Assembly: GCA_031835245.2 (NCBI GenBank)
Contig: JAVKOQ020000024.1
Location: 186,001 to 250,000 of the forward strand
Source: Balamuthia mandrillaris
Taxonomy: Eukaryota
Direction of reading: 5' to 3'
DNA: 64,000 nt
Below are positions 636 to 18,585 of this stretch, piece after piece. The notes under the pieces are model-generated. The model ran no database searches. It was not told where the DNA came from and saw only the letters and a list, made by a program, of their open reading frames with translations. The position numbers and the translations under genes are program-made. Each line of letters opens with the position of its first letter. Within the stretch, counting starts at the first letter, position 1.

Positions 636-907
636 CACACAAAAAAAAGATCATCTCTTTGCGTATTTGATTTTTTACTGGACGTTTGTTTTAAAAAAAA
701 ACAGTAAGATCACAAGTTCCTTTTGTTATTATGACGTGGTAAATTACGTTTTATGGTATATTTAACGTCATACCTTCTTTTTAAGGTTAAAACATGTGTC
801 CGATGACGTAACTTGTATCGTTTTTTGTCGACAAACGAAAATTATTTTTCTTTTTCTTTTTTCTTTTTTTTCAGTTTCACCAACAAAAAAAAAAGAGAGA
901 GAGAAAG

Positions 908-1445
908 ATGGAGTCTGCTGCTGCTGCCGCTTTTGATGTGGAGAAGACCAAGGGTTTCATCGAACAGGTGTGGGATGACAGCATCGTCCCCGCTTTGTGC
1001 GAGTACGTCAAGATCCCCAACCAATCCCCTCTCTTTGATCCCCAGTGGGCCACCAATGGTTACATGGACCAAGGTAAACGCCACGCCCACACACACACAC
1101 ACTGCCCTCACAAGCAACAAGCCTCACTTCTTTGTCTTAAAAAAAACTTTTTCGATTACTTTTTTATTTATATCTTATTATTTTATTTATTTTATCTGAT
1201 TCGAACCCCCTTTTTTTTTTGTGTGTGACACTAGCCATCCAACTGGAAGTGGACTGGGTGAAGAAGCAACAAGTGCCTGGCCTCGAAGTGAAGGTAACAC
1301 CCATCTCTGTTCTATGGACGTATTTTTGTTGGAAAGCTGAAATGCTGCTGCTGCTACCGCGCAGGTTATCACCGCCCCTGAGAGGACGCCCGTCATTGTT
1401 CTCACCGTGGAAGCCACCACTGAAAACAAAGAGTATTCCTCTCTT

Positions 1446-1500
<55 letters not shown>

Positions 1501-3355
1501 CTGTATGGTGCACAGGCTGAAGTGTTCTCTGCTCCTTCTCCTCGCTCTTTTCTTCCATGCTTCTCTGCTTCTCTCTTTCTCAGCTTCTCAGTGCTTCTCT
1601 GCTCCTCTCCTTCTCCGCTCTTTCTCTTCTCTTCTATTCTTGTTGCTTGTTTTCTTACGGAAACTCAAACGTTACACAGGGACACGGTGTTGCTTTACGG
1701 CCATTTGGACAAGCAGCCTCCCTTGACGGAAGGCTGGGAGGCAGGCATTGGCCCTTACACCCCTGTCATCAAGGACGGCAAGCTCTACGGCAGAGGCGGA
1801 GCTGATGACGGCTACGTATGTTTGTCTTTGTTGAGTTTAGCTGTGTGTTTCTTGTTTTCTGTGTTGGTGACTCACCCTATCGTTCTTTTTTCAATCTACA
1901 AGTCCATCTTTGCGGCAGTCACCGCCATCAAGGCTCTCAAAGAACAAGGTGAGAAAATCGGTGGAATGCTTTTCTATGTTAGCGTCCAAGTTGCTCATTC
2001 GTTTCTTTGTTTTTGTGGTTGCGTATTTGCGTAGGAGTTCCTCATTCGAGATGCGTGATCCTTGTGGAGGCCTGCGAGGAGAGCGGCAGCCGAGACCTGC
2101 CCTTCTACATAGAGCAGTTGCGTGACACCATCAAAACGCCCTCTCTCATCATCTGCTTGGACAGTGGCTGTGGCAACTATGATCAAGTGCGTTTCTTCTT
2201 TTACTTTTTCTTTAATTACTAATACGGGTTCTTGTTTTTTATGCTGAGAGCAGTTGTGGCTCACAACATCTCTTCGTGGAGCGGTTGTTGGCACCCTCCA
2301 AGTCAAGGTCTTGACGGAGGGAGTCCACAGCGGAAAGGCCAGCGGTATCGTGCCCTCTTCTTTCCGCATCCTGCGCCACGTGCTCAACCGCCTGGAGGAC
2401 AGCGAGACCGGAAAGATCATTCCAGAGTGCTTCTACTGCCCTATTCCTGAGCAAAGATTGGTTCAGGCCAAAGAGGCGGCTGAGACCTTGGGAGAGGAGC
2501 TTCACACCACTGTATGTCTTAGCTCTTATCTCTCTCTCTCTCTCTCTCTCTGTCTCTGTCTCTCATCGTCTCGTGGCTGAACTCTCTCTTCGCATATCCC
2601 GTTACTCATCTTTTCCCTTTTTTTTGCGTTTCATAACAGTTCCCATGGGCCGGCAAGACCAAACCTGTCACTCATGACCTGACAGAGCTGCTTCTCAATG
2701 AGTGCGTGTTACTCTGAATGTTGAGTTCTTGATCTTTGCTTATTTGTTTCTCATTTATAACTATTTTCAAGGACGTGGCGCCCTCAATTGTCCGTGACTG
2801 GTGTGGCCGGCATGCCCACCCTGGAAGCTGCCGGTACTTTATCTTTTCTATATGTATTCTTTCTGCTCTTTTTTCTTGTCTTTGTTTTATTTTGTCTTTT
2901 GTGGATTTTTTTGTTACTTGCTCTTGTGGGGGCTTTTTCTTGAAGTAGAAACCTTATAAACAACGACAAATAGGCAACGTGTTGCGAACTCACACGGCTG
3001 TAAAGCTCTCTCTACGTATCCCGCCAAACGTGCGTGCCAAGGAAGCCTCTGACAACCTGAAGGCGCTCTTTGAAAAGGATGTTCCTTACGATGCTGAGGT
3101 TTACTTCTTCTTCTCCTTCTACTCCTTCTCTTCTTCTTCTTTCTTGTTGTTCTTCCTTTCTTCTTCTCTCTTCCTTTTTGTTTTATATGTTTAGTTTCAG
3201 GCGCAAACAAAAACATAATAACATGAAAAACTAACAGGTGGCTTTCATTCCGGATAAGTCGGCCACTGGATGGGAGTCTCCCCAAGTGGTAGACTGGCTC
3301 AAAGAGTCTTTGGACAAGAGCTCCAATGCTTTCTTTGGCAAGGGCGCTTGTTGTA

Positions 3356-3403
<48 letters not shown>

Positions 3404-3808
3404 ATCTCATCCCCTTAGGCTTGCATTTCTTTGTTGCTTCTTTTTTCTTTTTTGTTTTATTTTTCTTTCATCAAACACCTAACAAGACCAAGGAGAAGGA
3501 GGCAGCATTCCATTCATGGGCATGCTCGGTGAACTCTTCCCCAAGGCTCAATTCATGATCACAGGTAACCTCTTTACCTCCATTCGGCGCTTTCCTTCGT
3601 TTTTCTTGTTTTGGCTTTTTTTTTGTTCCTCCTCCTCCTCCGATCTGCCACATAAAACTGATGTTGTCCTTCAAAAAACAAAAAAGGTGTGTTGGGTCCC
3701 AACTCCAACGCGCACGGCCCCAACGAGTTCTTGCACATCAAGATGGGCAAAGGCGTCACCTACTGCGTGGCTTCCGTTCTGGCGGACCAAGCCCACCACC
3801 AGGCCTAA
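908..3808 (+). CDS. M20/M25/M40 family metallopeptidase (dipeptidase/DapE-like), multi-exon
   Basis: Motifs IPNQSPLFD, LYGHLDKQPP, GKLYGRGGADDGY, EACEESGS, CLDSGCGNYDQLW, GVHSG, GEGGSIPF and NAHGPNEFLH lie across GT-AG exons. ATG at 908, TAA at 3806-3808. Confidence 0.93.
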
Positions 3809-3816
3809 AATTTCTA

Positions 3817-3873
3817 TCATGACGACACGATTTGGTACCATGACGACCTGAGGTCAGACTCGGGACGACATGA
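3817..3873 (+). promoter_or_regulatory. Three tandem YCRK-GACGAC-VYGA motifs upstream of the RasGEF gene
   Basis: tcatgacgacacga (3817), ccatgacgacctga (3838) and tcgggacgacatga (3860), spaced 21-22 bp apart. Confidence 0.45.
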
Positions 3874-4189
3874 AGTTAATTAATTTTAGAATTGGAGGGA
3901 AATGATTGGCCCGTTTTTGAGTAACGCAACAAATAAAAATATAAAAAAATATATAAAAAAGAAAGAGAAAAATAGTTAGAGGGGCGGGCGGCGGAGTACC
4001 GAAAAGATCGGTAGCGTTGTTCTTTTTTTTTTCTGACTTCCTTTTTTTTTTGTTGATTGCAAAAAAAAAGCATATTAGATTTATTATAGAAGAGGTTCGT
4101 TTTTATCTTAGCTTTTTTTTTGGTGGCTTTATTAAGAAGAAGAGCTAAACAAAACAGAGGGAAAAAAAGGGGGCCGACAAAGAGGTTCG

Positions 4190-6270
4190 ATGGCGGATCA
4201 GAAGCTTCGTGCGGACCGCAGGAAAAGCACGCGGCAAGCACAAAAGGGCACTTTTGACTTTTGGCACAAGCTCGACCGGGAGGCCAGCTCTCGCACCCTC
4301 ATTGCCAACAAAACCGCTCGATTATTCGACACCAGTAAACTTCTCTCTCTCTCTCTCTTCTTTACCGTTTCGTCTTGTTTGCTTTGTTTGTCTTTTCTTT
4401 TCTTTTCTTTTCTTTTCTTTTCTTTTCTTTTCTTTTCTTTTCTTTTCTTTTCTTTTCTTTTCTTTTCTTTTCTTCTCATTTTTCTTTCTTTTCTTATAGA
4501 AAAAGAAACAGAGAAAACGGAAGCCTCGCCTCCGACTCTCAGAAAAAGCTTTTCTCCTTTTGTTCTTCGAAGAGGACCCTCCAAACCTTCTTCCTCTTCC
4601 TCTTACGAAGAGCTCCGCTCTGCAAAGAAGAAAGGTTCCAACAATGGAACGGAAACGCAGAGCAAGCTGCAAAAAGCCCAACAACAAAGAGGAGCAAAGA
4701 ACAAAACCAACAACAACAACAAAAAGAAAAAGACCAACAAAGAGGAAGAGAAGAGCTCAACGCCCAAAAAGAAGCGACGCAAACAAAAGGAGAACGAAGG
4801 AGGGTCCGCTTCCTCCTCCTCTCCGTCTTCATCGCCAATGATCACAACAAAGGGAGAAGTAAGACAGAAACGGAGGAGAAGCGCCGAAATAAGCTCGCTT
4901 CGACCGTTCGGAGCCGAAACGCTGTTCGACAAGGACAAAGAAGAAGAGGCCAAGGAGATCGCAGCCATACGGACCGACTTTTACTCCAGCAACTTTCATC
5001 ACTCCTTGCCCGTCCTCAAGCCCTCGGAGCAACAGCATCCCATTCGCCGGTCCTTGTTGGAGGTGCAGCAGCATTGGAGCCACGTTCGAGCGGAGGAGGA
5101 ATGGAGCCAGAGATGGGTGGAGGAGAAGCGGAAGCGAGCGAATGTTGCTCGTGCGCTGCGGAAGGAGAGGAAGCGGAGAGAGGAGGCGGAGAGGGAGTTG
5201 CTGCTCGCGAGAAAGGAGAACGAAGAGTTGAAGAGTGAAGTGGAACGTTTGCTGGCTCTTCTTCCCTCCTCATCCGGACAAAACGAGGACGAGGATGCCA
5301 ACGAAAAGAGCAAAAGGAAGAAGAAAGCGGGTCCAACGAAAACATCGAGCGTGCCTTCTTCTCCACGCTCCGTTTCTTTGGATGGAGGAACGGGCGCCCC
5401 GTCTCCTCTTGCCATATCAGCAGCGGCCACGTCTTTGTTGACGGTCGCACAACAAGAGAACCTTCGTTCCACGCTCATGCGCCGCGCCTCCATGGGAGAA
5501 GCTCCCAAGAAGCACTTGAAGATGAAGTCATCCGGAACGACGATGGTACCGCCAAAGATGCAGAGAAAAGGATCCAGCCATTCCCTCGCTGTTGCCAACA
5601 AGAAAGCGGGTGTTCAAAAGAACGACTCCTCCTCTCTTCGAACCACCACCAAAGCGGGTCGTTCTCTTTCCTCTTCGACCCCGTCGGAGCTTAATGCGAA
5701 TAACGAGAAGAAGAAGAAGAACAACAACAATAACAACAATAACAACAAGCCGAAGCAGAAGAAGAAAGGATCGAGCAGCGATACGGAAAACAAGTTGCAG
5801 CTCTCACTCGATGTTTCGCTCTTGCCGGAGAGACAAAGAAGAGCGAGCGACAAGACCACGCCGACAACAGCAACCACAACCACCAAGAGAAAGTCCAGTC
5901 TTGAACGATCGTCAAAGACCACGCGAAGAGCGAGCCTTAGCGCTCCTCTGGATCGGTCCGTGTTGGCGGAGCAGGAGGAGGAAGGAAGAGTCAAGGAGGA
6001 GGAGGAAGAGGAGGTGGAGGCGGAAGCGGAAGCGGAGAAGAGCGAGAAGAGCGTTACCGAGGGAGACGAACAAGAAGACACCGAGGAAGATCTCTCTATC
6101 CCGAGCCCGAGGATACAAGAAATAACTGGAGGAAGGATCAGGGTGCCCTCCATGTTCAGCCATGGAAGCAAAGTCTCGCAGTCGTTCATTTTGAGGAAGG
6201 CCGATGATCAGCAGGACGGTGACTCGAGCGATGGCTCTGGTCTGTAGTTTCGCTTCGTTTTTTTTTTTTT

Positions 6271-6312
<42 letters not shown>

Positions 6313-9300
6313 CTAAAAAACCTATAATAGGGTCGGGAAATGGCGATAGGAAGAAGAAGTGGGGAGAGGTCTACAGGCAGAAAAGCAAGGACGACCTCCA
6401 CTTGCTCATCTCCCCTAAACGGTCCAACCGGAGCTCCTCTTTTACCGAAAAGAGCGATGGAGAGGCCAGCTCCGCCTCCTCCACGCCTCGTGCTTCTCTT
6501 GACGAACCTACTCGCTCCTTCAGCGTACGTTCTCTCTCATTGTTTCCTCCTTACTGTTCTTCCTCCTCCTCCTCCTTCTGCTTCTGCGTTCTCCTTCTTG
6601 TTCTTGTTCTTCTTCTCCTTCTCCTTCTCCTTGTTCTTGTTGTTGTTGTTGTTGTTCTTCTTCTTCTTGTTCTTCTTCTTCTTCTTCTTCTTCTTCTTCT
6701 TCTTCTTCTTCTTCTTCTTCTTCTTCTTCTTCTTCTTCTTCTTCTCTTCTCACGCCTTAAACATAGACTCCCTCAACACCGGGCTCCAAAGACAAGAAGC
6801 CCAAGAAGAAATGGAAACGCCGAAACACCGCCCAGAACCTCCACACGGTCCAATCCGAGCGCTCCATGGGTCTTATGGAGGAACGTCTCAGCACGCTCCT
6901 CGAGGCGCGCCCTACCCGCTCCCAACTGGTCAAGCAAAACCTGTTGGAGGGGAGCGTCTTTGGGGTGGCTCTGGAGAACATGATCATCGAGCAGGGAGAG
7001 GAACTTCCTTGGTTCATCAAAGAGTCGGTCAACCTCTTGAAGCGAAAGGTCAAAACGAAGGACCTGTTCATAGCGGAGGAGAACGACCACAAAGAACGGC
7101 AAAAGCTGCTCTCCCTCAAAGAGTCGATCAATGCGGGGAGCAAGAACAGAGAGGAGTTGGAGAGCATCGAGCCAGTTCTGTTGGCGGAGTTATTGAAGTT
7201 GTTCTTGAAAGAACTTCCGGAGCCGCTCATCCCTGCCTCGCTTTATAATCCCTTTATTGACGCTGCCGGTTTGCTCCCTTGTTCTTGTTCTTGTTCTTGT
7301 TCTTGTTCTTGTTCTTGTTCTTGTTCTTCTTCTTCTTCTTCTTCTTCTTCTTCTTCTTCTTCTTCTTCTTCTTGTTCTTCTTCTTCTTCTTCTTCTTCTT
7401 CTTCTTCTTCTCTCGTTTCATTGTTGTTTATGTACGCTTATCTCCATCCTTCCTTCTGTTCCTTCCTTTCGCTCTCTCAGAAATCAAGTTTCATACGTTC
7501 CGAGTGAACGCCCTCCACTCTCTCCTCTTCACGATGCCCAAGCTCAACAGAGACGTTCTTCGCGAGATCACCAGCCTCCTCTCCGAGGTCAGCAAACAGA
7601 AAGCCAACGGCGTTACGACCGGCAAATTGACCCCCGTTTTCGGGCCTCTCCTCCTTCGACCAGAGCAACTAGCCTCTTCCTCTTCGTCTGCTTCTCCGGA
7701 TGTCACCCGCAAGGGCGTTGCTTCCAAAGACGTCTCTTTTGCCTCCAACATCTTAACCATTCCCGACAGCAACAACGACAAAAGTTCAAACAGAGGGTCA
7801 AGCATCTTGGAAGCGTTGCAGCAAGATGACAAGAATACCTCCACAGAAAAAGAGAAGGGCAAGTCGGTCTTCTCGGAGCTCAAAGCGAGAGCGGATGAGA
7901 CGGCCACAAAGAAGAGTGCTGCGGTGGTGCATGAGCTGTTGTTGGAGCACGAGTTGCTGTTCTTCCAGATCGACAAACATATCAAGTTCCAGATGAAAGA
8001 TGGAAAGCTGCTGGTAAAGGCTTGTACTCTGGAGAAGCTGGTGGAAAAGATGGTCGATGAAAATTACCAAGGTTTCTTCCTCCTCGTTCTTGTTCTTGTT
8101 CTTGTTCTTCTTGTTCTTCTTCTTCTTCTTCTTCTTCTTCTTTGTTCTTTCTTCTTGTTCTTCTTCTTCTTCTTGTTGTTCTTCTTCTTCTTCTTCTTGT
8201 TGTTGTTGTTCTTCTTCTTCTTCCTCTTCTCTTCGTTTTACTAACTCTATTGTATAGAGGTTGGATTTGTGGAGATTGTCTTCTTCACACATACCTATTT
8301 CACCACGTCGGTGATCTTGTTGAAAAAACTTATCAGCCTGTACGTTAGCTTCCCTGTTTTCTTGCTTCCGCTGCATTCTCATTCTAATACGCTTCTACCT
8401 TTCTTTACAGTTATAACAAGAACAATACATTGCCCAATCTGGGCAGTCGCAATTGGCAGCACAAACTTCGGATAAGGTTACTATCTGCTTATTATACTCA
8501 TATGTGGTGTATATATTTTTTTAAACTCACACAAACAAACAGAGTATTGACGTTGTTGAAGAATTGGATCGTCACATACTTTTATGAACTCGGCGAGGAC
8601 CAAGAGTTCACAACTTTGTTGCAGGGTTTTGCGGACGTGCGACCCGGCTTGAAGGGCAAGTCTTCCACCATTCTCGAGGAGGAGAGCATCTTTGGCTTTA
8701 TTCGTGTTTACATGGCTTCTCTGGTTCGTTTTTTTTTTTCCTCCTCCGTTCCGTTCTATATCTCTTTTTCTTCTTTAAACTTACAACGACACAATCAACA
8801 GGAACAAAAGAAGCTACAAAAGAAACAAGAGCTGCGTTCCATAAGTTTCTATAAAGGCATTCCAGGAGTAAACATGGAGGCATTACGAGAGAAGAACAGC
8901 AAAAACCAAAGAAAGTCGAAAGGAGGAATAGGGGCAAGCCGACGAGAACGAAAGATGGAGAAGAAGAGAGAAAAAGAGGAGAAGAAGAGGGAGAAGAAGG
9001 AGCGGGAAAGAAAGGAGAAGGAGAAGAAGGAGAAGGAAAGAAAAGAAAAGGAGGAGCAGCAACGGAAAAAGAAAGAACAGTCAGAAGGAAAAGCCTGCCC
9101 CAAAGGGAAAAACGAGAAGGAGGAAAGGGAGGACAAAAATGCGGAAAGCGGAACCGAAACCAAAGAAGACGAACAAAGCGAAAAAGAGAACGAAACGGAG
9201 GAAGGAGAAACGGAAGGAGAAGACAGCCCTTCTCTTCACTCTGAACAAGAAGACCCGACGACAACGCCAACCACATTGACAACAATCTCGCCAACAGGAA

Positions 9301-10388
9301 CAACAATCACCGGTATGAATCACCAACAGTTGGCGGCAGAGAAGTTGGAGTTTCTCTCGCTCAGTGCCCAGGAGCTGGCCCAACAGCTCACCTTGATAGA
9401 TCACGAGCTCTTCAAGGTCGTTCCTTCCAAGGAGTTGGTCAAGAAGCGATTCATGGATGCAGAAACCTCTCCCCATTTTACCGCCTTGGTGAATCGTTTT
9501 AACTTGGTAAAGCTCTTTTCTTTCTCCTTCTTTCTTTCTTTCTTTTCATATTCTTACTTGTTTGGTGCAGACTGGACAATGGGTGGGCACAGAATTGGCC
9601 AAGTATCCAACACCGGCAGAGCGCGCTCAAGTGCTTGCACACTTTATAGAGATCTGTCAGGTTGGTAGCCACTTTCATTCTTTGTTTTGTTATTCATTTG
9701 CTTTGTTTTCTTCTTTCTAAAAACATTTTAAACTGATAAAACAAAAAACAGGAATGCTATGACATGAATAGTTTTAATAGCGTGTTTGCGTTGTTGGCAG
9801 GTCTTAACAATACCGCCATCTCTCGTTTGAAGCAATCGTGGGAGGTACTAATTATAACCATTCCTTTCTTCTCTTTTTTAAAACATTATACTCATCGTTT
9901 GTATTATTTAAAAAACAGAAAATACCAAAGAAAGTGATGAAGAAATACCACAACTTGATGACATTGGTCGACACGGATAAGAACTATCAGACCTATCGTC
10001 AAACTCTTGTCAAGACCAAACCACCCCTTGTTCCTTATCTCGGTACTTTATTCTTTGCTCTTTCTTCTCCTCTCTCTCTCTCTCTCTCTAATATATTCTT
10101 GAATGCTTTGCACTCCTCTCACTTTGCTTCTCAAACACAGCTTTATTCTCAAAGGACCTGTTCAGCGTGGAAGAAGGCAATCCCACCATGTTGGAGGATG
10201 AGATGGTCAACTTTGAGAAGATGCGCATGCTGCACAAGATAGCCCAAGACTTTGCCAGCTACCAGGTGCAATACCCCATTCCGATGGACCCCATGCTGCG
10301 CGCCTACCTCAAAGGCACCGAACCCCTCTCCGAGAAAGAGCTCTACGACATGTCCTATCGTTATGAGCCAAGGGTGACCACTTCCTAG
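4190..10388 (+). CDS. Large RasGEF: low-complexity N-terminus, RPEL motif, RhoGAP-like domain, REM and CDC25 domains
   Basis: Exons join in frame across introns such as 6240-6330 and 6525-6766. RhoGAP hallmarks are VFGVALE, LKLFLKELPEPLIP and VFGPLLLRP. REM hallmarks are VKACTLEKLVEKM and FFTHTYFTT. CDC25 hallmarks are ELAQQLTLIDHELF, FNSVFALLAGL..AISRLKQSW, PPLVPYLA and EEGNP..VNFEKMR. TAG at 10386-10388. Confidence 0.88.
4391..4474 (+). repeat. (TCTTT)n intronic microsatellite
   Basis: Perfect pentamer array in the first intron of the RasGEF gene. Confidence 0.95.
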
Positions 10389-11344: not shown

Positions 11345-11443
11345 TCAGAGTCCCGATTCCTGTCCAGGTTCCACTTGGTCACCCGACAAAAACTGAAGTT
11401 GGTACACACTGATGAATGGAACCTACTTGTCAGCGACTGAGGA

Positions 11444-11484
<41 letters not shown>

Positions 11485-12214
11485 GAGGGAGAGAGAGAGA
11501 ATACCTCCAAATGTGCTCCAAACAATCCTCAAAATGAGGTAGCTCATAGCCAGTTAACCGTTGAAGATGGTAGGGCCATGCGGGACGCAGCTGGAGTTGC
11601 CGCCTCGCGGCCGCAAAGGCGGCAGAGGCCACGATGGAGGGGTAGGAGTTGACAAAGTTGTGATCTTTTTATGGAAAAGAGAGAGATCGAAGTATGAATT
11701 AATTAATTAGTTGTTGTTACCTTATTCGTGTTTTATCCGTAAAAGGAAAATACAACGAAAAATAAATCCGTGGACAACGAGACAAGACAAGAGCCAAGAC
11801 GGGAGAGAGAAGAAAAGAAAGTGGAAAAGAAAGTGAGAAAGAGGAAAGGACACGCAAAAAACGTACCATGCAAACAAAAGTCGACAAAGAACTCGGCGTA
11901 CTTGCGTTGGTAGCGCTGCACGAGGTGAACCTTCTCCGAGGGAATGGTACGGTCGTTCATTCGGTCCTCTGAGGGGTCCACCACGTTGCCCTTCTCCAAA
12001 AAGTACTCCAAAAAGTGCCGCGGCGTCAACACCATCAGCTCCCAGTCCAAGATCTGAAGGAGGAGGAGCTCCATCTTGCAGATGAGTTGTTCTGTGTAGG
12101 CGTCATCGCAGCAGCGATTCAGCAAAGTTGGAGAGGGTACGCTTTGTTCTTGTTCTTCCACTTTGGCTGCAACCCACCCAAAAAAAATGAGACAAGAAGA
12201 GAGAGTAAAGAAGA

Positions 12215-12256
<42 letters not shown>

Positions 12257-13527
12257 GAACCAGCAGCAAAAATACAGGCGGCAGCAAGAAGTTGAAGCCG
12301 TGAGGCAGCAAAGTGTTGTCGGGAGATGGCTCTGTCCATGAAAGTGACGGCCATGTGTATGGTGAGGCTCGTGAGGTTGAGAGTCTTATCACCGTTTTCC
12401 GTCATCCACTCGACAAGCACTCCGCGAGCGCGCATATACTCCTCCGAAAAGCTGAGCCGAGCAGCGCGTCGCTCCTTCTCCTGCATCTCATGGTACAATT
12501 CAGCTTTGTCCAGTTGTTCCTCCTCGTTGTTCTCGTAGTTGTGTTGTTGTGGCAGAAAGTGGCTATGGTGGGAATGGTAGAATTGGTTTTGGCTGTGGTG
12601 GTTGTTGTGGTAATGGCTCTGGTTTTGGCTGTGGCTGTGGTTGTATTGGTTAGGGTTGTGGTTGTGTTGGGCGGTGGCGAAAGGTTGGTGGTGATGGCGA
12701 AATCCAAAGTTGCTGCTAGTACTGCTATAGCTGTTACTATTGGTGTCAGTGGAGGACATCATGGCCCAGCCAGGTGCATGCGCCATGGAATCTGTACGGA
12801 AAGCAGAAGCAGAGGAGGCAGCCACGGCGCCACGAAAGTGGTTGCTGTAGTCGTCCTGCCGACCTACCTGCATGACTTCGTAGGCGGAGCGCTCTGCTTC
12901 TTCATCGTAGTCAGCATCTTCTGGCTCTTCTTCATCATCCACTTTGAGTGGAAAGACAGTAGCGGCAAAAGAGAACGTGGAGCGGTAGGGTCGGTCTGTG
13001 ACTTCTTCTTCTTGTACTTGGTCCTCGTCTTCTTCTCCTTCTTGATCTTCCACGCCGGTTTCATGCTCTACAAAACCAGGGGTTTGTTTCCTTACCGCCC
13101 ATTTCCCAGCCATCTCTTCTCTGCCTTCATCGTCCTCGATAGCATGTTGTGTTTCCTCTCCCTCCTCCTCAAAGAAGCTCTCCGCTGTCGTTGCATGGTG
13201 AGTGTGGTGGTTGTTGCTGTGCGAAAGGTCGCCCTGAAAGCTGTTCTCCATCAATCCGCTTTGTCTTACTGTCAATGGGCTCTCGTCTCCTTTGTCCGAC
13301 TGAGCAGCAGGACAACCGCAAGCAGATGAAAGCAGTTGCTGTTGTGGGTTGTGTTGATGTCGTTGCTTGCAAGCACAGGTGGTAGCGGTGGCCCTGCTGT
13401 CGCGGCAGTCGTCGTTGTTGTCGGTGTGAGTGATGTTGTTGCTGTGGACTGTCTGTAGCTGTGGTCGCGCCAGTGGGTAGAAGCTAGCTCCAGAAGCAGA
13501 GGCAGGGTTACTCAGCGTGCATGCCAT
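11345..13527 (-). CDS. Cyclin with long acidic/His-rich N-terminal extension; cyclin J-like
   Basis: Cyclin box RGVLVEWM...TIHMAVTFMDR...LQLLAAACIFAAAKVEE...MELLLLQILDW..TPRHFLEYFL. C-terminal cyclin fold KYAEFFVDFCLHDHNFVNSYPSIVASAAFAAARRQLQLRPAWPYHLQRLTGY. The last-exon acceptor is inferred, with the stop at 11345-11347. Confidence 0.85.
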
Positions 13528-14875
13528 ATATCCTGACGGATGGCGGATGGCAGACTTTAAAGGGGTTGGATGTTATACCCGGTTACGGTGAGTGGAAGAA
13601 GGGATTGGATCGGAATGGGTTGATTAGCGAACAAAGCCAAAGCGTTTTAGTAAAAAAGTTTGGAAAAAAAACTAATTTTAAAAAAGCGTAGTGGGAGTAG
13701 CTTGTGCGTTGACGGAGGGGGAGAGGGATGAATCCCCAACACAAAAAAGTTTCGAAAAAACAAATAAAATACCTTTGGTTGTTGCGGCTGCTACTCCCAG
13801 AAGTTCTGTGCGTGTATTTTTGTCGATGCTACCTCCCCGCCCGATGTGCCACCACCGTTTTGACCTGAGGAGAAAGAGAGAGGGCGTCGCTAAAACTGTC
13901 GGGTCGAAAGAACAAAAAAAAAACACAGCACATGAGCACCAAAAAGAAGAGAGCAGGGCTTTAGAAAACAAAAAGAGAGCAGTAGTAGCCCAGAGAGAAC
14001 AACCAATCCCAGCCGCTACCCCCTCATACAATACCTTTGTCGCAGGGAAAAAAAAAACGTAGCGCAGCGGGCAACGAAAGAGAACAACACACACACACAC
14101 ACGAGAGCGCACCAACCCACCCACACACAAGAGAGAGAGAGAGAGAAGGGAGGGAAAAGAAAAAAGAACACCACACAATACGCTACAAACAAAAAATATA
14201 GAGCAAAACCAAAGAAAAAAAATAAACTTGTGGAGAGGCAATGAAAAAAAAAAAACATGAAGCTGTCCCATAATCCCTTTTGTCGTCCGCTTCCGTAAAT
14301 TTCTATTATTATTTGTTTGTGGAGCCCCAAAAAAATTCGGAGTTTAATCGACCATGGTTTAATATGGATAGGTTTTGCCGTATTAGGCAAATCCGTTCGA
14401 TGATAGCGTTGCAAAAAACAAAAAAAAAAAAAAAAAAAAAAAACCGCTGGTGGGCCACAGCACCGGGATACCAAACCCAAAAAAAAAAGAAAAGGCGAAT
14501 GCGCGTCAGTGTTTGTGGAGGACGCACTCCACACCGCTTTCACGACTTTATTTTCCGATTGTTTTTGAGGATCTCGCGTTTCTTTCTCCCGGGTTTGACG
14601 GAGGCGACCGGGAAGGAAGCATTCTTGCTTTGGAACTCTCGCGCCCATTGCTAGGAGAATAGCGTGACGGGTAGGACCAAAAAAAAAACCCCGTTTCACA
14701 GGTGGAAATTATATATTTTCAATGCAGGTCTACATTTATGTTTTTTTGGCTTGGGTGTGTTTTGTTGGTTACGCATTTTCCTTCCGTGTTGGGCGATCAT
14801 TTGTAACCTTCGTCGCTTCTTCTGCCCATTTTTTTGTGTGCGCATCCTTTTGGTCATTTGTTGCGCCAACGAACG

Positions 14876-16097
14876 TCAAAATAGGCCGGTTTTCCTCAGC
14901 TCGTGCCCAATGAAAATGCTCCTCAATATCTCCTGCATTTCTCTTCGGGAGGCCGTCTTTTGAACGAACGGATGCTTTTTGATGAAAACAAAGAGCAATT
15001 AAGCAGGTCATAAAGGTAAATAAGTTATTTATCCTCTCACGTGCGCGCCACCCAAAGGTAAAAAAGACAAAAACAATAAAAGACCGCGGGGTGACCGCCA
15101 GAGAAAGGAAAAACCAGCTTTTTGTTCTCGCTTACCTCCAAAAGTTCCTTGGTGGTGGCTCTTTCTGTTGGCTCACGAACAATGCAGCGGGACATAAAGT
15201 CCACAAACTCCTGCGACCACTTGGCGGCGTTCAAAAAGCCCGGTAGCTCGCCGACCGCCACGTTGAATAAGCACTTTAAGTAATGAAACGGAAAGAAAGT
15301 GATGCGCAAATACGTGATGTCAGATGGGACAGTGACGAGAAAGAAGAAGAGAGAAGCAGAGAGGCAGAGAACCTTAAGAGCGTTTCTGTCAAACGGTACA
15401 GTCCGGTTTGCGAGTTCCAAGACACAAATGGCAAGACTCCAAATATCGGCCTGTTAATCGCAACAGAACATCAGTGAGGAGAGCACGAGAGAGCAGATAA
15501 GAAAGGTTGCCAATACCGGATAACCATGTGGTTGCTGTAATATCATTTCAGGAGGGATCCAGAACGGTGAGCCAACCATGCTGGTCACTGGCCCTCCGCT
15601 GAGGTCAATGCACAATCCAAAATCAACTGTATTGTCCATGTTATTAGTCAGATGCTTGTGTGCCACAACGAAGAGAAGAGGTAAGAGGTACGAGATATAC
15701 GCACTCAACTTCACTTCCCCGTTAACGCTGAGCATCACCTGCAGACGACGGAGAGAGAGAGAGAGAGAGAGAGAGAGTTGAGCATATTGTATATGTACAG
15801 AAGAAAGGCAACGCACATTTGCACTTTTCAAGTCCCGATGAACAAAGTTGTTTCTATGAAGGTAGTCGATACCTTTGAGCATCTGAACACATATTGTTCC
15901 AACGTGTTAAAAAAAAACATCAACAAAATATTTGGGATGTGCGTTTACCTCTTTCACCAGATAAGCGATATGCTTTTCTTCCATCTCGTATTCCGTGGCT
16001 GCTTCTGCCAACGTACCTCCCTCCATAAACTCCATTATGACCTTTAAGTTGGTTTTTGTTTCGTCGTTAGAAAGCAGAGGGAATGGAGAGAATAGAC

Positions 16098-16144
<47 letters not shown>

Positions 16145-17337
16145 TACCCAAGCTTCTCGTGCACTCGCCATCTCATAAGACCTAAAATATTTGACAATGT
16201 TTGGGTGATCAAACTGACGCAAAAAGTTTATTTCCACCAGGCATTGCCGTTGTTCTTTCTCTGTATTAAAAGGCATCTTCTTGATGGCATACTGCGTGTA
16301 CCATAGATAAAAGATTAGAAAGATGCGCTGGACCCCTCTTCCAGTTCTTTTATGTTGCTTGTTACATTCTTGTCGTTTCTGATCATCCGTCTTTGCTTTC
16401 GTTCTCTCAACGGTTTGCTTCTTTCTTGGAGCAAAAAAGCGACAGAGAAAACGTACTGTCCGTTTGTCTTCGAGAGAGATAGCGGAATAAACTCTACCAA
16501 AGCCCCCACGACCTGCAATTTCATATTTTTTATATAGTGTTTCTGGAGTTCCGGCCGTCAGCAAGTCTCCTGCATGTCGCAGATAGGAGAGGACAGAGTT
16601 TAGAAAGAAGTCCCATGAAAACAATAAATATTAAAAATAAGACTGACACGACAAGAGAGTGTAAGAAGGAGAGAGCGAGAAAGAGACAGAGGCGCTGGAA
16701 AACCAAAACCAAAACCTTACCAGGAGATAAAGATACATCAGTGCGTGGGTCACGTGGTCGATGATCCCCGTTTTTAAACTTGCGAGAAGTGGCAAAACGA
16801 AGGCACTGTAGCAATATATCAAAATGTTCCTTGTAGAGGTCCATCGAAATGCGAGTTTCCTCCAACCGCTTAATAATATCGCTTGGAAGATCCTTGTTGT
16901 GGTTGTTTATTTGGCTAAAGGTAAGCTTGTTGGACAAAGAGAACGAGAGAGAGAAGGCGGTAATTGTTGAAAAAATTAGAACCTCTATAGAGACTGCCTC
17001 TATTACTGGTTTCGAGTTAAAACTATGCCGATACTTTCGGCGCCCTCCTGGTACCTATTTTCTTTTTCTGTCACTAAAACAATAAACACGCGATCAAAAG
17101 GAGAAAGTAAACGAACCTCTTCAAGATATGCCTTAACAACTTTTTTGATGGGCTTGTGGTTGTTTACGATGTCGGCAATTCCCTCCGCGTCAATGTCGGC
17201 ATTACTCTGCAGGAGCAGCAGTACCAAGTCCTTTCGCCCCGTATGCATTGCGGAGTGTAATGGAGAGACTCCAGTCCTGTTTGTAAGCGGTCATATCAGT
17301 AACTCATATCGACGAGAATAAAAGATGCGAAACATAG

Positions 17338-17406
<69 letters not shown>

Positions 17407-17976
17407 GAGGGAGGGGAGGGAGGGAGAGGAGTCAATGGACTTGTCAGTTGTGTTTGGGTTAGCATTGTGGCTCAACAGCAAAGACACCATCTCTACGCAG
17501 TCTGCTTTGACAGCCTTATGCAGGGGCGTCTGTCCCAAGTTGTCTTGGGCATCGATGTTAAAGTCCTTCGTCTCCAGCATCATCTTCACCAGCTTGGGTG
17601 CTCGGTCTGGAGCCACTCCCGAGGAACAAATAAAGTGCAAGGCGGTGGCTCCGGACTTTGTGGTCAAGCTAGGATTGGCTCCTTGCTTCAAGAGGTATTC
17701 TATAACTTTGCTGTGCATATGAGAGCAGGCGCAGTGAAGAGGTGTGCGGTGGTTCGTGTCGAGAGGGTCCAGCTCGGGTTTGGCTTTGAGCAAAGTCTTG
17801 AGGAGCGGCAGGTTGCCCTCAAAGGCAGCCACGTGGAGAGCTGTCTGTTGGAACTGGTCGCGGGCATTAACGTCTAGTGCTCCGGAGCTGAGCTGACGCA
17901 CCACATCCTTCTTGCTGTTGCTCTTGACCAGTTCGTGGAGGAGAAGTGCCTTGCCATCGCGTGATATGCCTGACAT
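14876..17976 (-). CDS. Ankyrin-repeat STE20/PAK-like Ser/Thr kinase
   Basis: N-terminal ankyrin repeats (QTALHVAA, RTPLHCAC, ATALHFIC, QTPLHKAV). Kinase motifs GRGGFGRVY, YAIKKM, VHRDLKSANV, DFG and VGSPFWIPPEMI. Ends HPFV...KTGLF*. Confidence 0.9.
17340..17402. repeat. (GA)n/(TC)n intronic microsatellite
   Basis: Dinucleotide array in an intron of the minus-strand kinase. One of dozens in the window. Confidence 0.95.
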
Positions 17977-18585
17977 CACAGCGGATACACCTTCAGAACC
18001 AAGCTTGGTAAGTTTTGAAAATAAAAAACGAACAGCAAGTTGCTGTCCTTCCCTCACGCTGCGCCTTTGTCGTCTTTTTTTTTTTCCCCAATGCCAGGCT
18101 GGAGCGTCTTCAGATTAGGTGACGATAAGGCCACCATAACAGAGCCAACCGACAAACCGCTTTTTGGTAACGAATGTACGAGAACCGCAAGCTTAGCAGC
18201 TTGCGTTTCTGGAACAACCGTACCTTTTTTTGCGTTTCAATTTTCAAACTCCGAACCGACACATCGCCTTTTATGGAATAGTGGTAATCACAACGACACG
18301 ACGGGTAGAGAAACAGACCTTGTGTCGACCTGAAAAGAATCTGGAGAAGGGCAATACAACGAAAAATATGAGAGAAAAAAAATAAATGGGTGGGGCACAA
18401 GAAAAGGCGAGCAAAGGGATTCGTTCCTTTTGAATTGGAGGCAGTTGGCTATACAAATTTTTTTGTTTGTGTAGTAGTGCTTGTTTTGTAGGAAACAAAA
18501 AATAAAGAAAAAAAAAAGAGGGCGCAGGGCTTCAAAGGAGGATCATTGTGTGCCGCGTGCCGGTTTTTTTTTGTTTGGAGAGGAT

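What the first reader, a model, noticed from the sequence alone, without database searches (positions are those of the whole stretch)
6875..7660. RPEL motif joined to a RhoGAP domain lacking the arginine finger, within a RasGEF
Seen: MEERLSTLLEARPTRSQLVKQNLL (6875-6946) fits the RPEL consensus (LxxxLxxRPxxxELxxxNIL) and directly precedes a RhoGAP fold. Where GAPs have EG(I/L)(F/Y)R, this protein has KDLFIAEE. Known: in ARHGAP12/32-family proteins an RPEL just before the GAP domain lets G-actin inhibit GAP activity. Inference: the GAP is a pseudo-enzyme or Rac-binding module, and G-actin level may instead gate the CDC25 RasGEF, giving actin-to-Ras/Rap feedback.
Basis: partly seen in the sequence, partly recalled or inferred. 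Interest (0 to 1): 0.72.

Follow-up and report, generated by a model that had tools for sequence, protein, structure and literature searches.

The report
Actin-sensing motif on amoeba Ras activator
This amoeba gene encodes a Ras-family switch activator carrying a Rho-brake domain that lacks its catalytic arginine, next to a short motif that likely binds free actin, so the cell's pool of unpolymerised actin may feed back on Ras/Rap signalling; related amoeba proteins share the layout.

Summary
Observation confirmed. The stretch is exons 4-5 of a spliced 13-exon gene (4190-10388, +; 1586 aa, identical to an NCBI protein labelled Balamuthia mandrillaris). Order: RPEL motif, RhoGAP fold, REM, CDC25 RasGEF.

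The RPEL keeps the actin-contact positions of MAL RPEL2 (K121 is Leu here) and sits where the ARHGAP12 motif sits. It scores below Pfam's cut-off, as do some Arg-bearing RPEL-GAPs. The GAP has Ile795 at the arginine finger, with no Arg in that loop, and has also lost R323, N391 and V394.

The protein belongs to an Amoebozoa-wide RhoGAP-REM-CDC25 family that includes Dictyostelium GflB/GflD/GefD. In it, 25 of 26 alignable members lack the finger Arg and 9 of 31 keep an RPEL-like motif at the same spot, including a dictyostelid clade with GefD's layout.

RhoGAP-RasGEF fusions are known; RPEL on them was not found in the searched literature. G-actin binding is likely (~0.65). An effect on GEF output is inferred (~0.5); direct catalytic gating is ~0.2. 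The highest-scoring relative has a decayed RPEL, so it is dispensable in many lineages.

The parts
4190..10388 (+). Whole coding gene, 13 exons (4190-4334, 4500-6239, 6331-6524, 6767-7268, 7481-8071, 8258-8339, 8411-8476, 8543-8723, 8802-9506, 9571-9660, 9752-9844, 9919-10042, 10141-10388), 1586 aa
   Evidence: All introns GT-AG, one open frame; identical to P0002; spliced contig in run X1 with listed joints or contiguous pieces for most introns
4253..4267 (+). N-terminal FxFW motif (aa 22-26), shared with GflB-like and GefD-like relatives; function unknown
   Evidence: Regex [FY]W hits in 13 of 26 family members with 200 aa or more upstream of the GAP, one or two likely unrelated; two copies by eye in GflB, supplement Fig S1
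5102..5263 (+). Likely coiled coil (aa 250-303) in the low-complexity N-terminal half
   Evidence: By eye from the sequence; not computed
6875..6946 (+). RPEL motif (aa 730-753): L734, L737, L738, R741, P742, R744, L747, L752, L753
   Evidence: Pfam RPEL 16.2-19.7 bits; aligns with ARHGAP12 6gvc; PSSM test; helix-loop-helix in model; contact positions from PMC2583105
6947..7268 (+). RhoGAP fold, first half (aa 754-860); Ile795 at the arginine finger (7070-7072); K837 kept, R323-equivalent is K841
   Evidence: Pfam RhoGAP E 2.6e-10
7269..7480 (+).
   Evidence: flanking exons contiguous in X1 contig 1
7481..7965 (+). RhoGAP fold, second half (aa 861-1022) with a low-confidence insert at about aa 930-985; N391 and V394 equivalents are K909 and P912; family-conserved I862, H873, S874, L875, R884
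   Evidence: Pfam RhoGAP E 9.1e-8
7978..8723 (+). REM (RasGEF_N) domain, aa about 1027-1167, over exons 5-8, directly after the last GAP helix
   Evidence: Pfam RasGEF_N E 1.2e-17 on P0001; model
8868..9320 (+). Lys/Glu-rich low-complexity insert between REM and CDC25
   Evidence: Sequence
9351..10385 (+). CDC25 RasGEF catalytic domain (aa 1351-1586, exons 9-13), hairpin motif intact
   Evidence: Pfam RasGEF E 1.1e-54; best PDB matches 2ije (E 2.4e-37) and Epac2/RapGEF4 (E 3.8e-37)

Best explanation
The gene encodes an amoebozoan RasGEF of the GflB/GefD type whose RhoGAP fold lacks the catalytic arginine and is preceded by an RPEL motif that likely binds monomeric actin and would thereby tune where or how strongly the GEF activates a Ras/Rap GTPase. 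Shown: gene structure, domain order, fold, loss of the finger Arg and of three further GTPase-contact residues, and an RPEL at the ARHGAP12 position in four parts of the family tree. Inferred: (1) the GAP is catalytically dead; (2) the RPEL binds G-actin at micromolar affinity (~0.65); (3) the dead GAP fold serves as a spacer or relay between RPEL and REM, so high G-actin holds the GEF off the membrane or in a less active state and actin polymerisation releases it, giving positive actin-to-Ras/Rap feedback. The sign is borrowed from ARHGAP12 and MRTF. A localisation or partner-binding effect is more likely than direct control of CDC25 catalysis.
For: RPEL positions match MAL RPEL2 contacts L118/I122/R125/P126/R128/L131/I136/L137 as L734/L738/R741/P742/R744/L747/L752/L753; K121 is Leu737, which keeps only the aliphatic contact; the missing Glu is dispensable for binding (PMC2583105). 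The PSSM test gives 0 of 300 shuffles. The AF2 model (pLDDT 84, pTM 0.79) shows helix-loop-helix then a GAP fold. Its top Foldseek match is ArhGAP12 bound to G-actin, 6gvc; p50RhoGAP complexes match at Z 23, rmsd 1.8-1.9 A over 185-193 residues. The finger is non-Arg in 25 of 26 aligned family members (10 of 36 did not align there); R323 is kept in 3 of 34 and N391 in 1 of 25. The family instead conserves its own positions I862/H873/S874/L875/R884. An RPEL-like window ends 3-4 residues before the GAP in 9 of 31 members, in four parts of the tree. GflB localisation depends on actin and it links Ras and Rac signalling (PMC4865317).
Against: The RPEL is under Pfam's cut-off and scores far below canonical RPEL-GAP motifs (19 against 34-59 in-sample). 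22 of 31 family members lack a clear motif there, among them the highest-scoring relative (Luapelamoeba P0018, decayed), the Balamuthia paralogue P0026 and both GlfB_C proteins. The five dictyostelid motifs score only 0.2-4.4, within the range of negative controls (up to 6.0), and have lost the Pro. MAL RPEL3 keeps all contact residues yet binds about tenfold weaker, so motif match does not fix affinity. GflB's actin dependence maps to its N-terminal region, not to an RPEL. The CDC25 domain is about 600 residues from the RPEL.
Confidence: 0.5

Rival explanations
1. The RPEL is a relic or structural element inherited with the GAP fold from an ancestral RPEL-RhoGAP. It packs on the fold, binds actin weakly or not at all, and decays freely; the protein is an ordinary GflB/GefD-type GEF.
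For: Absent or decayed in 22 of 31 members, including close relatives; the Pro is lost in dictyostelids; sub-threshold Pfam score.
Against: The invariant Arg and the hydrophobic contact pattern survive at the exact spacing in Balamuthia, Pellita, Protostelium, a JGI protein and five dictyostelid-type proteins while the GAP's catalytic face has eroded. Arg-bearing RPEL-GAP controls also miss Pfam's cut-off (P0046 13.4 bits, P0072 no hit).
Confidence: 0.27
2. G-actin bound to the RPEL directly and allosterically switches CDC25 exchange activity through the pseudo-GAP and REM.
For: The last GAP helix runs straight into the REM in the family alignment. The model is a defined GAP-REM unit (pTM 0.79). 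SOS REM alignments start at model residues about 137-142, a weak hint that the family-conserved helix lies against the REM (ranges only).
Against: No coordinates were available to test contacts; the CDC25 domain was not in the model; RPEL-less members keep the same GAP-REM unit.
Confidence: 0.2
3. The pseudo-GAP is mainly a Rac/Rho-binding effector module that couples Rac to Ras/Rap, and G-actin competes with Rac for it, as recalled for ARHGAP12.
For: GflB 645-1601 binds RacE, Rac1A and RacB. This protein keeps K837 and P916 and has a basic residue at 841. Arg-less OCRL1 binds Rac1-GTP without hydrolysis (PMC8305018).
Against: The canonical binding face (R323, N391, V394) is variable across the family. 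GflB bound RacE regardless of nucleotide state and the binding was not mapped to the GAP fold.
Confidence: 0.2
4. The domain is still an active GAP, using another arginine or an arginine-independent route.
For: Fold intact (Z 23); K837 and the LKLFLxELPEPL segment are near canonical; gflB-null cells show raised Rac activation.
Against: No Arg in residues 787-803; the Gly before the finger, R323, N391 and V394 are all replaced; human Arg-less RhoGAP domains are described as inactive.
Confidence: 0.07

Closest known systems
Dictyostelium GflB, GflD, GefD (RhoGAP + RasGEF proteins; PMC4865317, PMC1273635)
   Same: RhoGAP before RasGEF in all three, with a RasGEF_N between them listed for GflB and GefD. 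GflB has Val at the finger column and two N-terminal FxFW-type motifs, by eye from supplement Fig S1A. GlfB_C-bearing proteins were retrieved with this query and share the degenerate GAP.
   Different: No GlfB_C domain here, so not a GflB orthologue by architecture. GflB has no RPEL before its GAP (by eye). One-to-one orthology is unresolved. The RPEL-bearing dictyostelid clade matches GefD's layout (GAP start to end 603-682 aa against 642), but the GefD sequence was not seen.
ARHGAP12-type RPEL-RhoGAPs (PDB 6GVC; ARHGAP15 3BYI)
   Same: Single RPEL ending a few residues before the GAP's FG motif; best sequence and structure matches among RhoGAPs.
   Different: Those keep the finger Arg and carry SH3/WW/PH domains (PH recalled); this protein has none of these but a REM-CDC25. 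In a GAP-domain tree all 44 Arg-bearing GAPs lie apart from the 27 family domains (SH-aLRT 89, quick tree).
MRTF/MAL and Phactr RPEL repeats
   Same: Contact residues and helix-loop-helix.
   Different: One copy instead of tandem repeats; attached to a GEF, not to a transcription cofactor or phosphatase regulator.
Yeast Bem2-type fungal RasGEF + RhoGAP proteins
   Same: Both domain types in one chain (PMC1273635; fungal hits).
   Different: In the fungal hits the GAP is near the C-terminus and keeps GIYR (P0004, P0006, P0008), with no RPEL.

Membership tests
Catalytically active RhoGAP | RhoGAP fold | tested here: met
   Pfam E 5.5e-24; Z 23.1, rmsd 1.9 A, 191 residues to 1tx4
Catalytically active RhoGAP | Arginine finger (Arg282 p50) | tested here: not met
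   Ile795; no Arg in 787-803; sequence alignment only, no residue-level structural overlay was available
Catalytically active RhoGAP | Binding determinants K319, R323, N391, V394, P398 | tested here: not met
   K837 and P916 kept; K841, K909, P912 replace R, N, V (list from PMC8305018; columns mapped by motif spacing)
Catalytically active RhoGAP | Stimulates GTP hydrolysis | not testable with these tools
   Needs an assay
RPEL motif (PF02755) | Invariant Arg, Pro and hydrophobic actin contacts at RPEL spacing | tested here: met
   R741, P742, L734, L738, L747, L752, L753; PSSM rank 1, 0 of 300 shuffles
RPEL motif (PF02755) | Pfam gathering score 23 | tested here: not met
   16.2 and 19.7 bits. 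Of 4 Arg-bearing RPEL-GAP controls, 1 passed (35.7, two repeats); the others gave 19.5, 13.4 and no hit
RPEL motif (PF02755) | Binds G-actin | not testable with these tools
   Needs a binding assay
ARHGAP12/32-type RPEL-RhoGAP | RPEL directly before the GAP domain | tested here: met
ARHGAP12/32-type RPEL-RhoGAP | Active GAP with finger Arg, and SH3/WW/PH N-terminal domains | tested here: not met
   Pfam finds only RhoGAP, RasGEF_N and RasGEF on P0001; tree places the domain outside
GflB/GflD/GefD-type amoebozoan RhoGAP-RasGEF | RhoGAP then REM then CDC25 in one chain | tested here: met
GflB/GflD/GefD-type amoebozoan RhoGAP-RasGEF | Orthology to one named Dictyostelium gene | tested here: inconclusive
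   Backbone of the 33-row quick tree is unresolved; the query groups with Luapelamoeba, Pellita and a Balamuthia paralogue (SH-aLRT 98); the named D. discoideum sequences were not in the tree
GflB proper | C-terminal GlfB_C domain | tested here: not met
   Present in P0068 and P0029, absent from P0001
CDC25 RasGEF | REM plus CDC25 domain with intact hairpin motif | tested here: met
CDC25 RasGEF | Exchange activity and Ras versus Rap specificity | not testable with these tools
   Best PDB scores tie between 2ije and Epac2

The most novel reading that the evidence does not exclude
Amoebozoa have an ancient, undescribed G-actin sensor on their Ras/Rap pathway: an RPEL-RhoGAP module lost catalysis, fused to a CDC25 GEF and now lets free actin switch the GEF. 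This would supply a molecular link for actin-to-Ras feedback in amoeboid movement and macropinocytosis, testable in Dictyostelium through the GefD-like protein.
Probability: 0.25. Interest if true: 0.85.

Novelty: new variant of a known kind. Interest (0 to 1): 0.55.

Why it matters
Actin feedback on Ras activation is invoked in amoeboid chemotaxis and macropinocytosis (PMC4865317, PMC9630474), and in the papers seen here RPEL motifs regulate only MRTF, Phactr and RhoGAPs. An RPEL on a Ras/Rap GEF would be a new output for G-actin sensing. It is directly testable: a 24-residue peptide assay, and a dictyostelid clade that keeps the motif. The family-wide loss of the whole catalytic face also shows that these 'RhoGAP' domains should be treated as pseudo-GAPs.

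Tried and rejected
Complex prediction (actin + RPEL-GAP) was not available: the queue was full and nothing was folded, so binding was not modelled; the actin loci and alignment prepared for it went unused.

No whole genome is held, so paralogues could not be counted.

Diring 2019, Liu 2016 and Inaba 2017 are not held. They may already state that GflB's GAP lacks the arginine, or list non-metazoan RPEL architectures; I recall both but could not check.

Literature searches that showed no RPEL-bearing RasGEF, listings only: 34 papers, 25 listed; 0; 15, 14 listed; uninformative, no listed paper held 'rpel'; 3. Earlier scan findings: none.

ESM Atlas gave only sub-0.9 leads (RhoGAP+RasGEF clusters at 0.84); the second look-up did not complete.

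The careful tree did not finish; the quick tree is used, with 3 of 36 rows left out for lack of a domain. The GAP tree used 76 rows, a subsample of the canonical GAPs, with 7 family rows left out for poor GAP coverage and 2 more too short.

Rejected: a base-calling error at the finger codon; a nearby substitute Arg in the loop; reading the Met at 6875 as a start; the NCBI automatic names 'caldesmon' and 'FYN-binding protein', which no domain hit supports. Run X2 (share 0.05) laid nothing and is no evidence.

Full report
Gene. The finding lies in a eukaryotic gene on the + strand. Thirteen exons with GT-AG introns give one open frame of 1586 aa from 4190 to 10388. The model is identical to P0002, which NCBI labels Balamuthia mandrillaris; a second record, P0001, differs at 45 alignment columns. 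A 4962-nt contig of run X1 (RNA is a guess on the record) follows the exons with no other letters in the eight pieces listed and joins 6767-7267 to 7480-8069; raw RNA reads of a second study cover the gene thinly and support the joints at 8474/8541 and 8722/8801. Pfam on P0001 gives RhoGAP 772-920, RasGEF_N 1036-1130 and RasGEF 1355-1530.

RPEL. The motif at 6875-6946 hits Pfam RPEL at 16.2-19.7 bits, below the cut-off of 23. Of four Arg-bearing RPEL-GAP controls only one passed that cut-off, so the miss is usual. phmmer against the PDB ranks ARHGAP15 and ARHGAP12 (6gvc) first, with the motif in register. In the MAL RPEL2:actin structure the contacts are L118, K121, I122, R125, P126, R128, L131, I136, L137 (PMC2583105, section 5 and passages read). 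Counting from the Arg, this protein has L734, L737, L738, R741, P742, R744, L747, L752, L753; only K121 differs. The absent Glu does not matter for binding in that paper. The same paper warns that RPEL3 keeps the contacts and binds an order of magnitude weaker. A PSSM from 39 of 84 Arg-bearing GAP hits scored this window 19.2, the best in the protein (next 6.4), and 0 of 300 shuffles reached it. Of 45 control GAPs, 44 scored 6.0 or less and one was a true RPEL missed by my spacing filter. Training motifs scored 34-59 in-sample, and the training set was retrieved with this protein.

Pseudo-GAP. The finger column is Ile795, with no Arg in 787-803. Runs X1, X3 and X4 show no difference at that codon; the only variant listed in the RPEL is a synonymous change in the Pro codon. 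An AlphaFold2 model of residues 720-1175 from a 43-row alignment has pLDDT 84 and pTM 0.79, with a helix-loop-helix RPEL, a GAP fold interrupted by a low-confidence insert, and the REM. Foldseek's top four matches are chains of ArhGAP12 bound to G-actin. VIA-align gives Z 24.6 (rmsd 3.2, 205 aligned) to ARHGAP15, Z 24.0 (rmsd 5.0, 210) to 6gvc, and Z 23 (rmsd 1.8-1.9, 185-193) to p50RhoGAP complexes; these are tied. A review names R282, K319, R323, N391, V394 and P398 as catalytic and binding residues and lists Arg-less human domains as inactive (PMC8305018, passages). Here K and P are kept; the others are I, K, K and P.

Family. A search of 1.84 billion representatives with residues 720-1175 (best 150 listed), gave 36 non-redundant proteins with a GAP-like domain before REM and/or CDC25. 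Of 20 looked up, those with a species name are Amoebozoa: Luapelamoeba, Pellita, Protostelium, Soliformovum, Thecamoeba, Clastostelium, Vermistella, Cochliopodium, dictyostelids and a second Balamuthia gene; that these are amoebozoans is my own knowledge. Against an HMM of 91 Arg-bearing GAPs, 25 of 26 aligned members lack the finger Arg (the exception, P0039, needs a one-residue shift; 10 did not align there). K319 is kept in 13 of 33, R323 in 3 of 34 and N391 in 1 of 25. Comparing 18 family with 18 canonical rows, the catalytic-face columns are lost while I862, H873, S874, L875 and R884 are conserved only in the family. An RPEL-like window ends 3-4 residues before the GAP in 9 of the 31 members with upstream sequence. 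It is strong in this protein, Pellita, Protostelium and a JGI protein (17-23), and weak in five dictyostelid-type proteins (0.2-4.4; Arg kept, Pro lost; best window of the protein in 4 of 5). Two further Arg-less GAP hits with the family signature also carry it. These fall in four parts of a quick tree whose backbone is unresolved. In a GAP-only tree all 44 Arg-bearing domains lie on one side of a branch (SH-aLRT 89) and the family on the other. An ancestral RPEL with repeated loss is the simplest reading, but the trees are unrooted. Against importance: the highest-scoring relative (Luapelamoeba) has a decayed motif and the Balamuthia paralogue has none.

What is known. Dictyostelium has three RhoGAP+RasGEF proteins, GflB, GflD and GefD. 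GflB 645-1601 binds RacE, Rac1A, RacB and RasG; GflB's localisation needs actin via its N-terminal region (PMC4865317: section 6, passages and supplement read). By eye, the GflB sequence in that supplement has Val at the finger and no RPEL. GefD (668 aa, GAP from residue 27; 642 aa from GAP start to end) matches the RPEL-bearing dictyostelid clade in layout (603-682 aa), and its first 26 residues are where the motif would lie; this is inference, as its sequence was not seen. gefD knockouts had no obvious growth phenotype (PMC1273635, passages) but reduced Ras activation is reported (PMC9630474, passages). ARHGAP12 binding G-actin through an RPEL just upstream of its GAP is stated in a bioRxiv passage citing Diring 2019; that actin inhibits the GAP is recalled, since that paper is not held. 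PMC6304742, PMC10553818 and PMC11696275 were seen as passages only. Searches (listings only) showed no RPEL-bearing RasGEF; most subscription papers are not covered.

Mechanism. Shown: the anatomy, and the erosion of the GAP's working face beside a retained RPEL. Inferred: with no GAP activity left to inhibit, an actin-binding RPEL can only act on localisation, partner binding or the GEF. I put G-actin binding at about 0.65, some effect on GEF output at about 0.5, direct gating of catalysis at about 0.2, and a relic motif at about 0.27. Ras or Rap specificity is open.

Verdict. Real, conserved, and a new variant of a known kind: two known modules (RPEL-GAP and RhoGAP-RasGEF) combined, with a dead GAP. 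Interest 0.55; 0.85 if actin gating of the GEF were shown.

Noticed in passing
window 4253-4267 (+); P0068, P0029, P0095, P0174-P0177, P0003, P0043, P0061: A short N-terminal FxFW(K/H)-type motif recurs in otherwise unalignable N-termini of the family, twice in GflB-like proteins. Candidate docking or actin-binding motif; function unknown.
   Followed up: partly
window 7483-7551 (+): Family-specific conserved patch on the pseudo-GAP (I862, H873, S874, L875, R884), absent from canonical GAPs; partner unknown.
   Followed up: partly
window 4093-4157 (+): A 5' UTR intron (63 nt) upstream of the start codon, seen in the X1 contig.
   Followed up: no
P0056, P0165: Arg-bearing RhoGAPs with two RPEL repeats that group apart from ARHGAP12-like proteins; origin not looked up; possible active relatives of the family's GAP.
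   Followed up: no
P0033, P0057, P0039: Family members with extra domains: C-terminal RGS (P0033 above cut-off, P0057 weak) and PIP5K (P0039).
   Followed up: no
P0026 (second Balamuthia gene): Paralogue with a more broken-up GAP fold, no RPEL and a very long REM-CDC25 insert.
   Followed up: partly
window about 880-3850 (+), 11400-13570 (-), 15000-18114 (-): Neighbouring genes: an M20 peptidase, a cyclin with a long low-complexity N-terminus, and ankyrin repeats next to a protein kinase domain, possibly one gene. No link to the finding.
   Followed up: no
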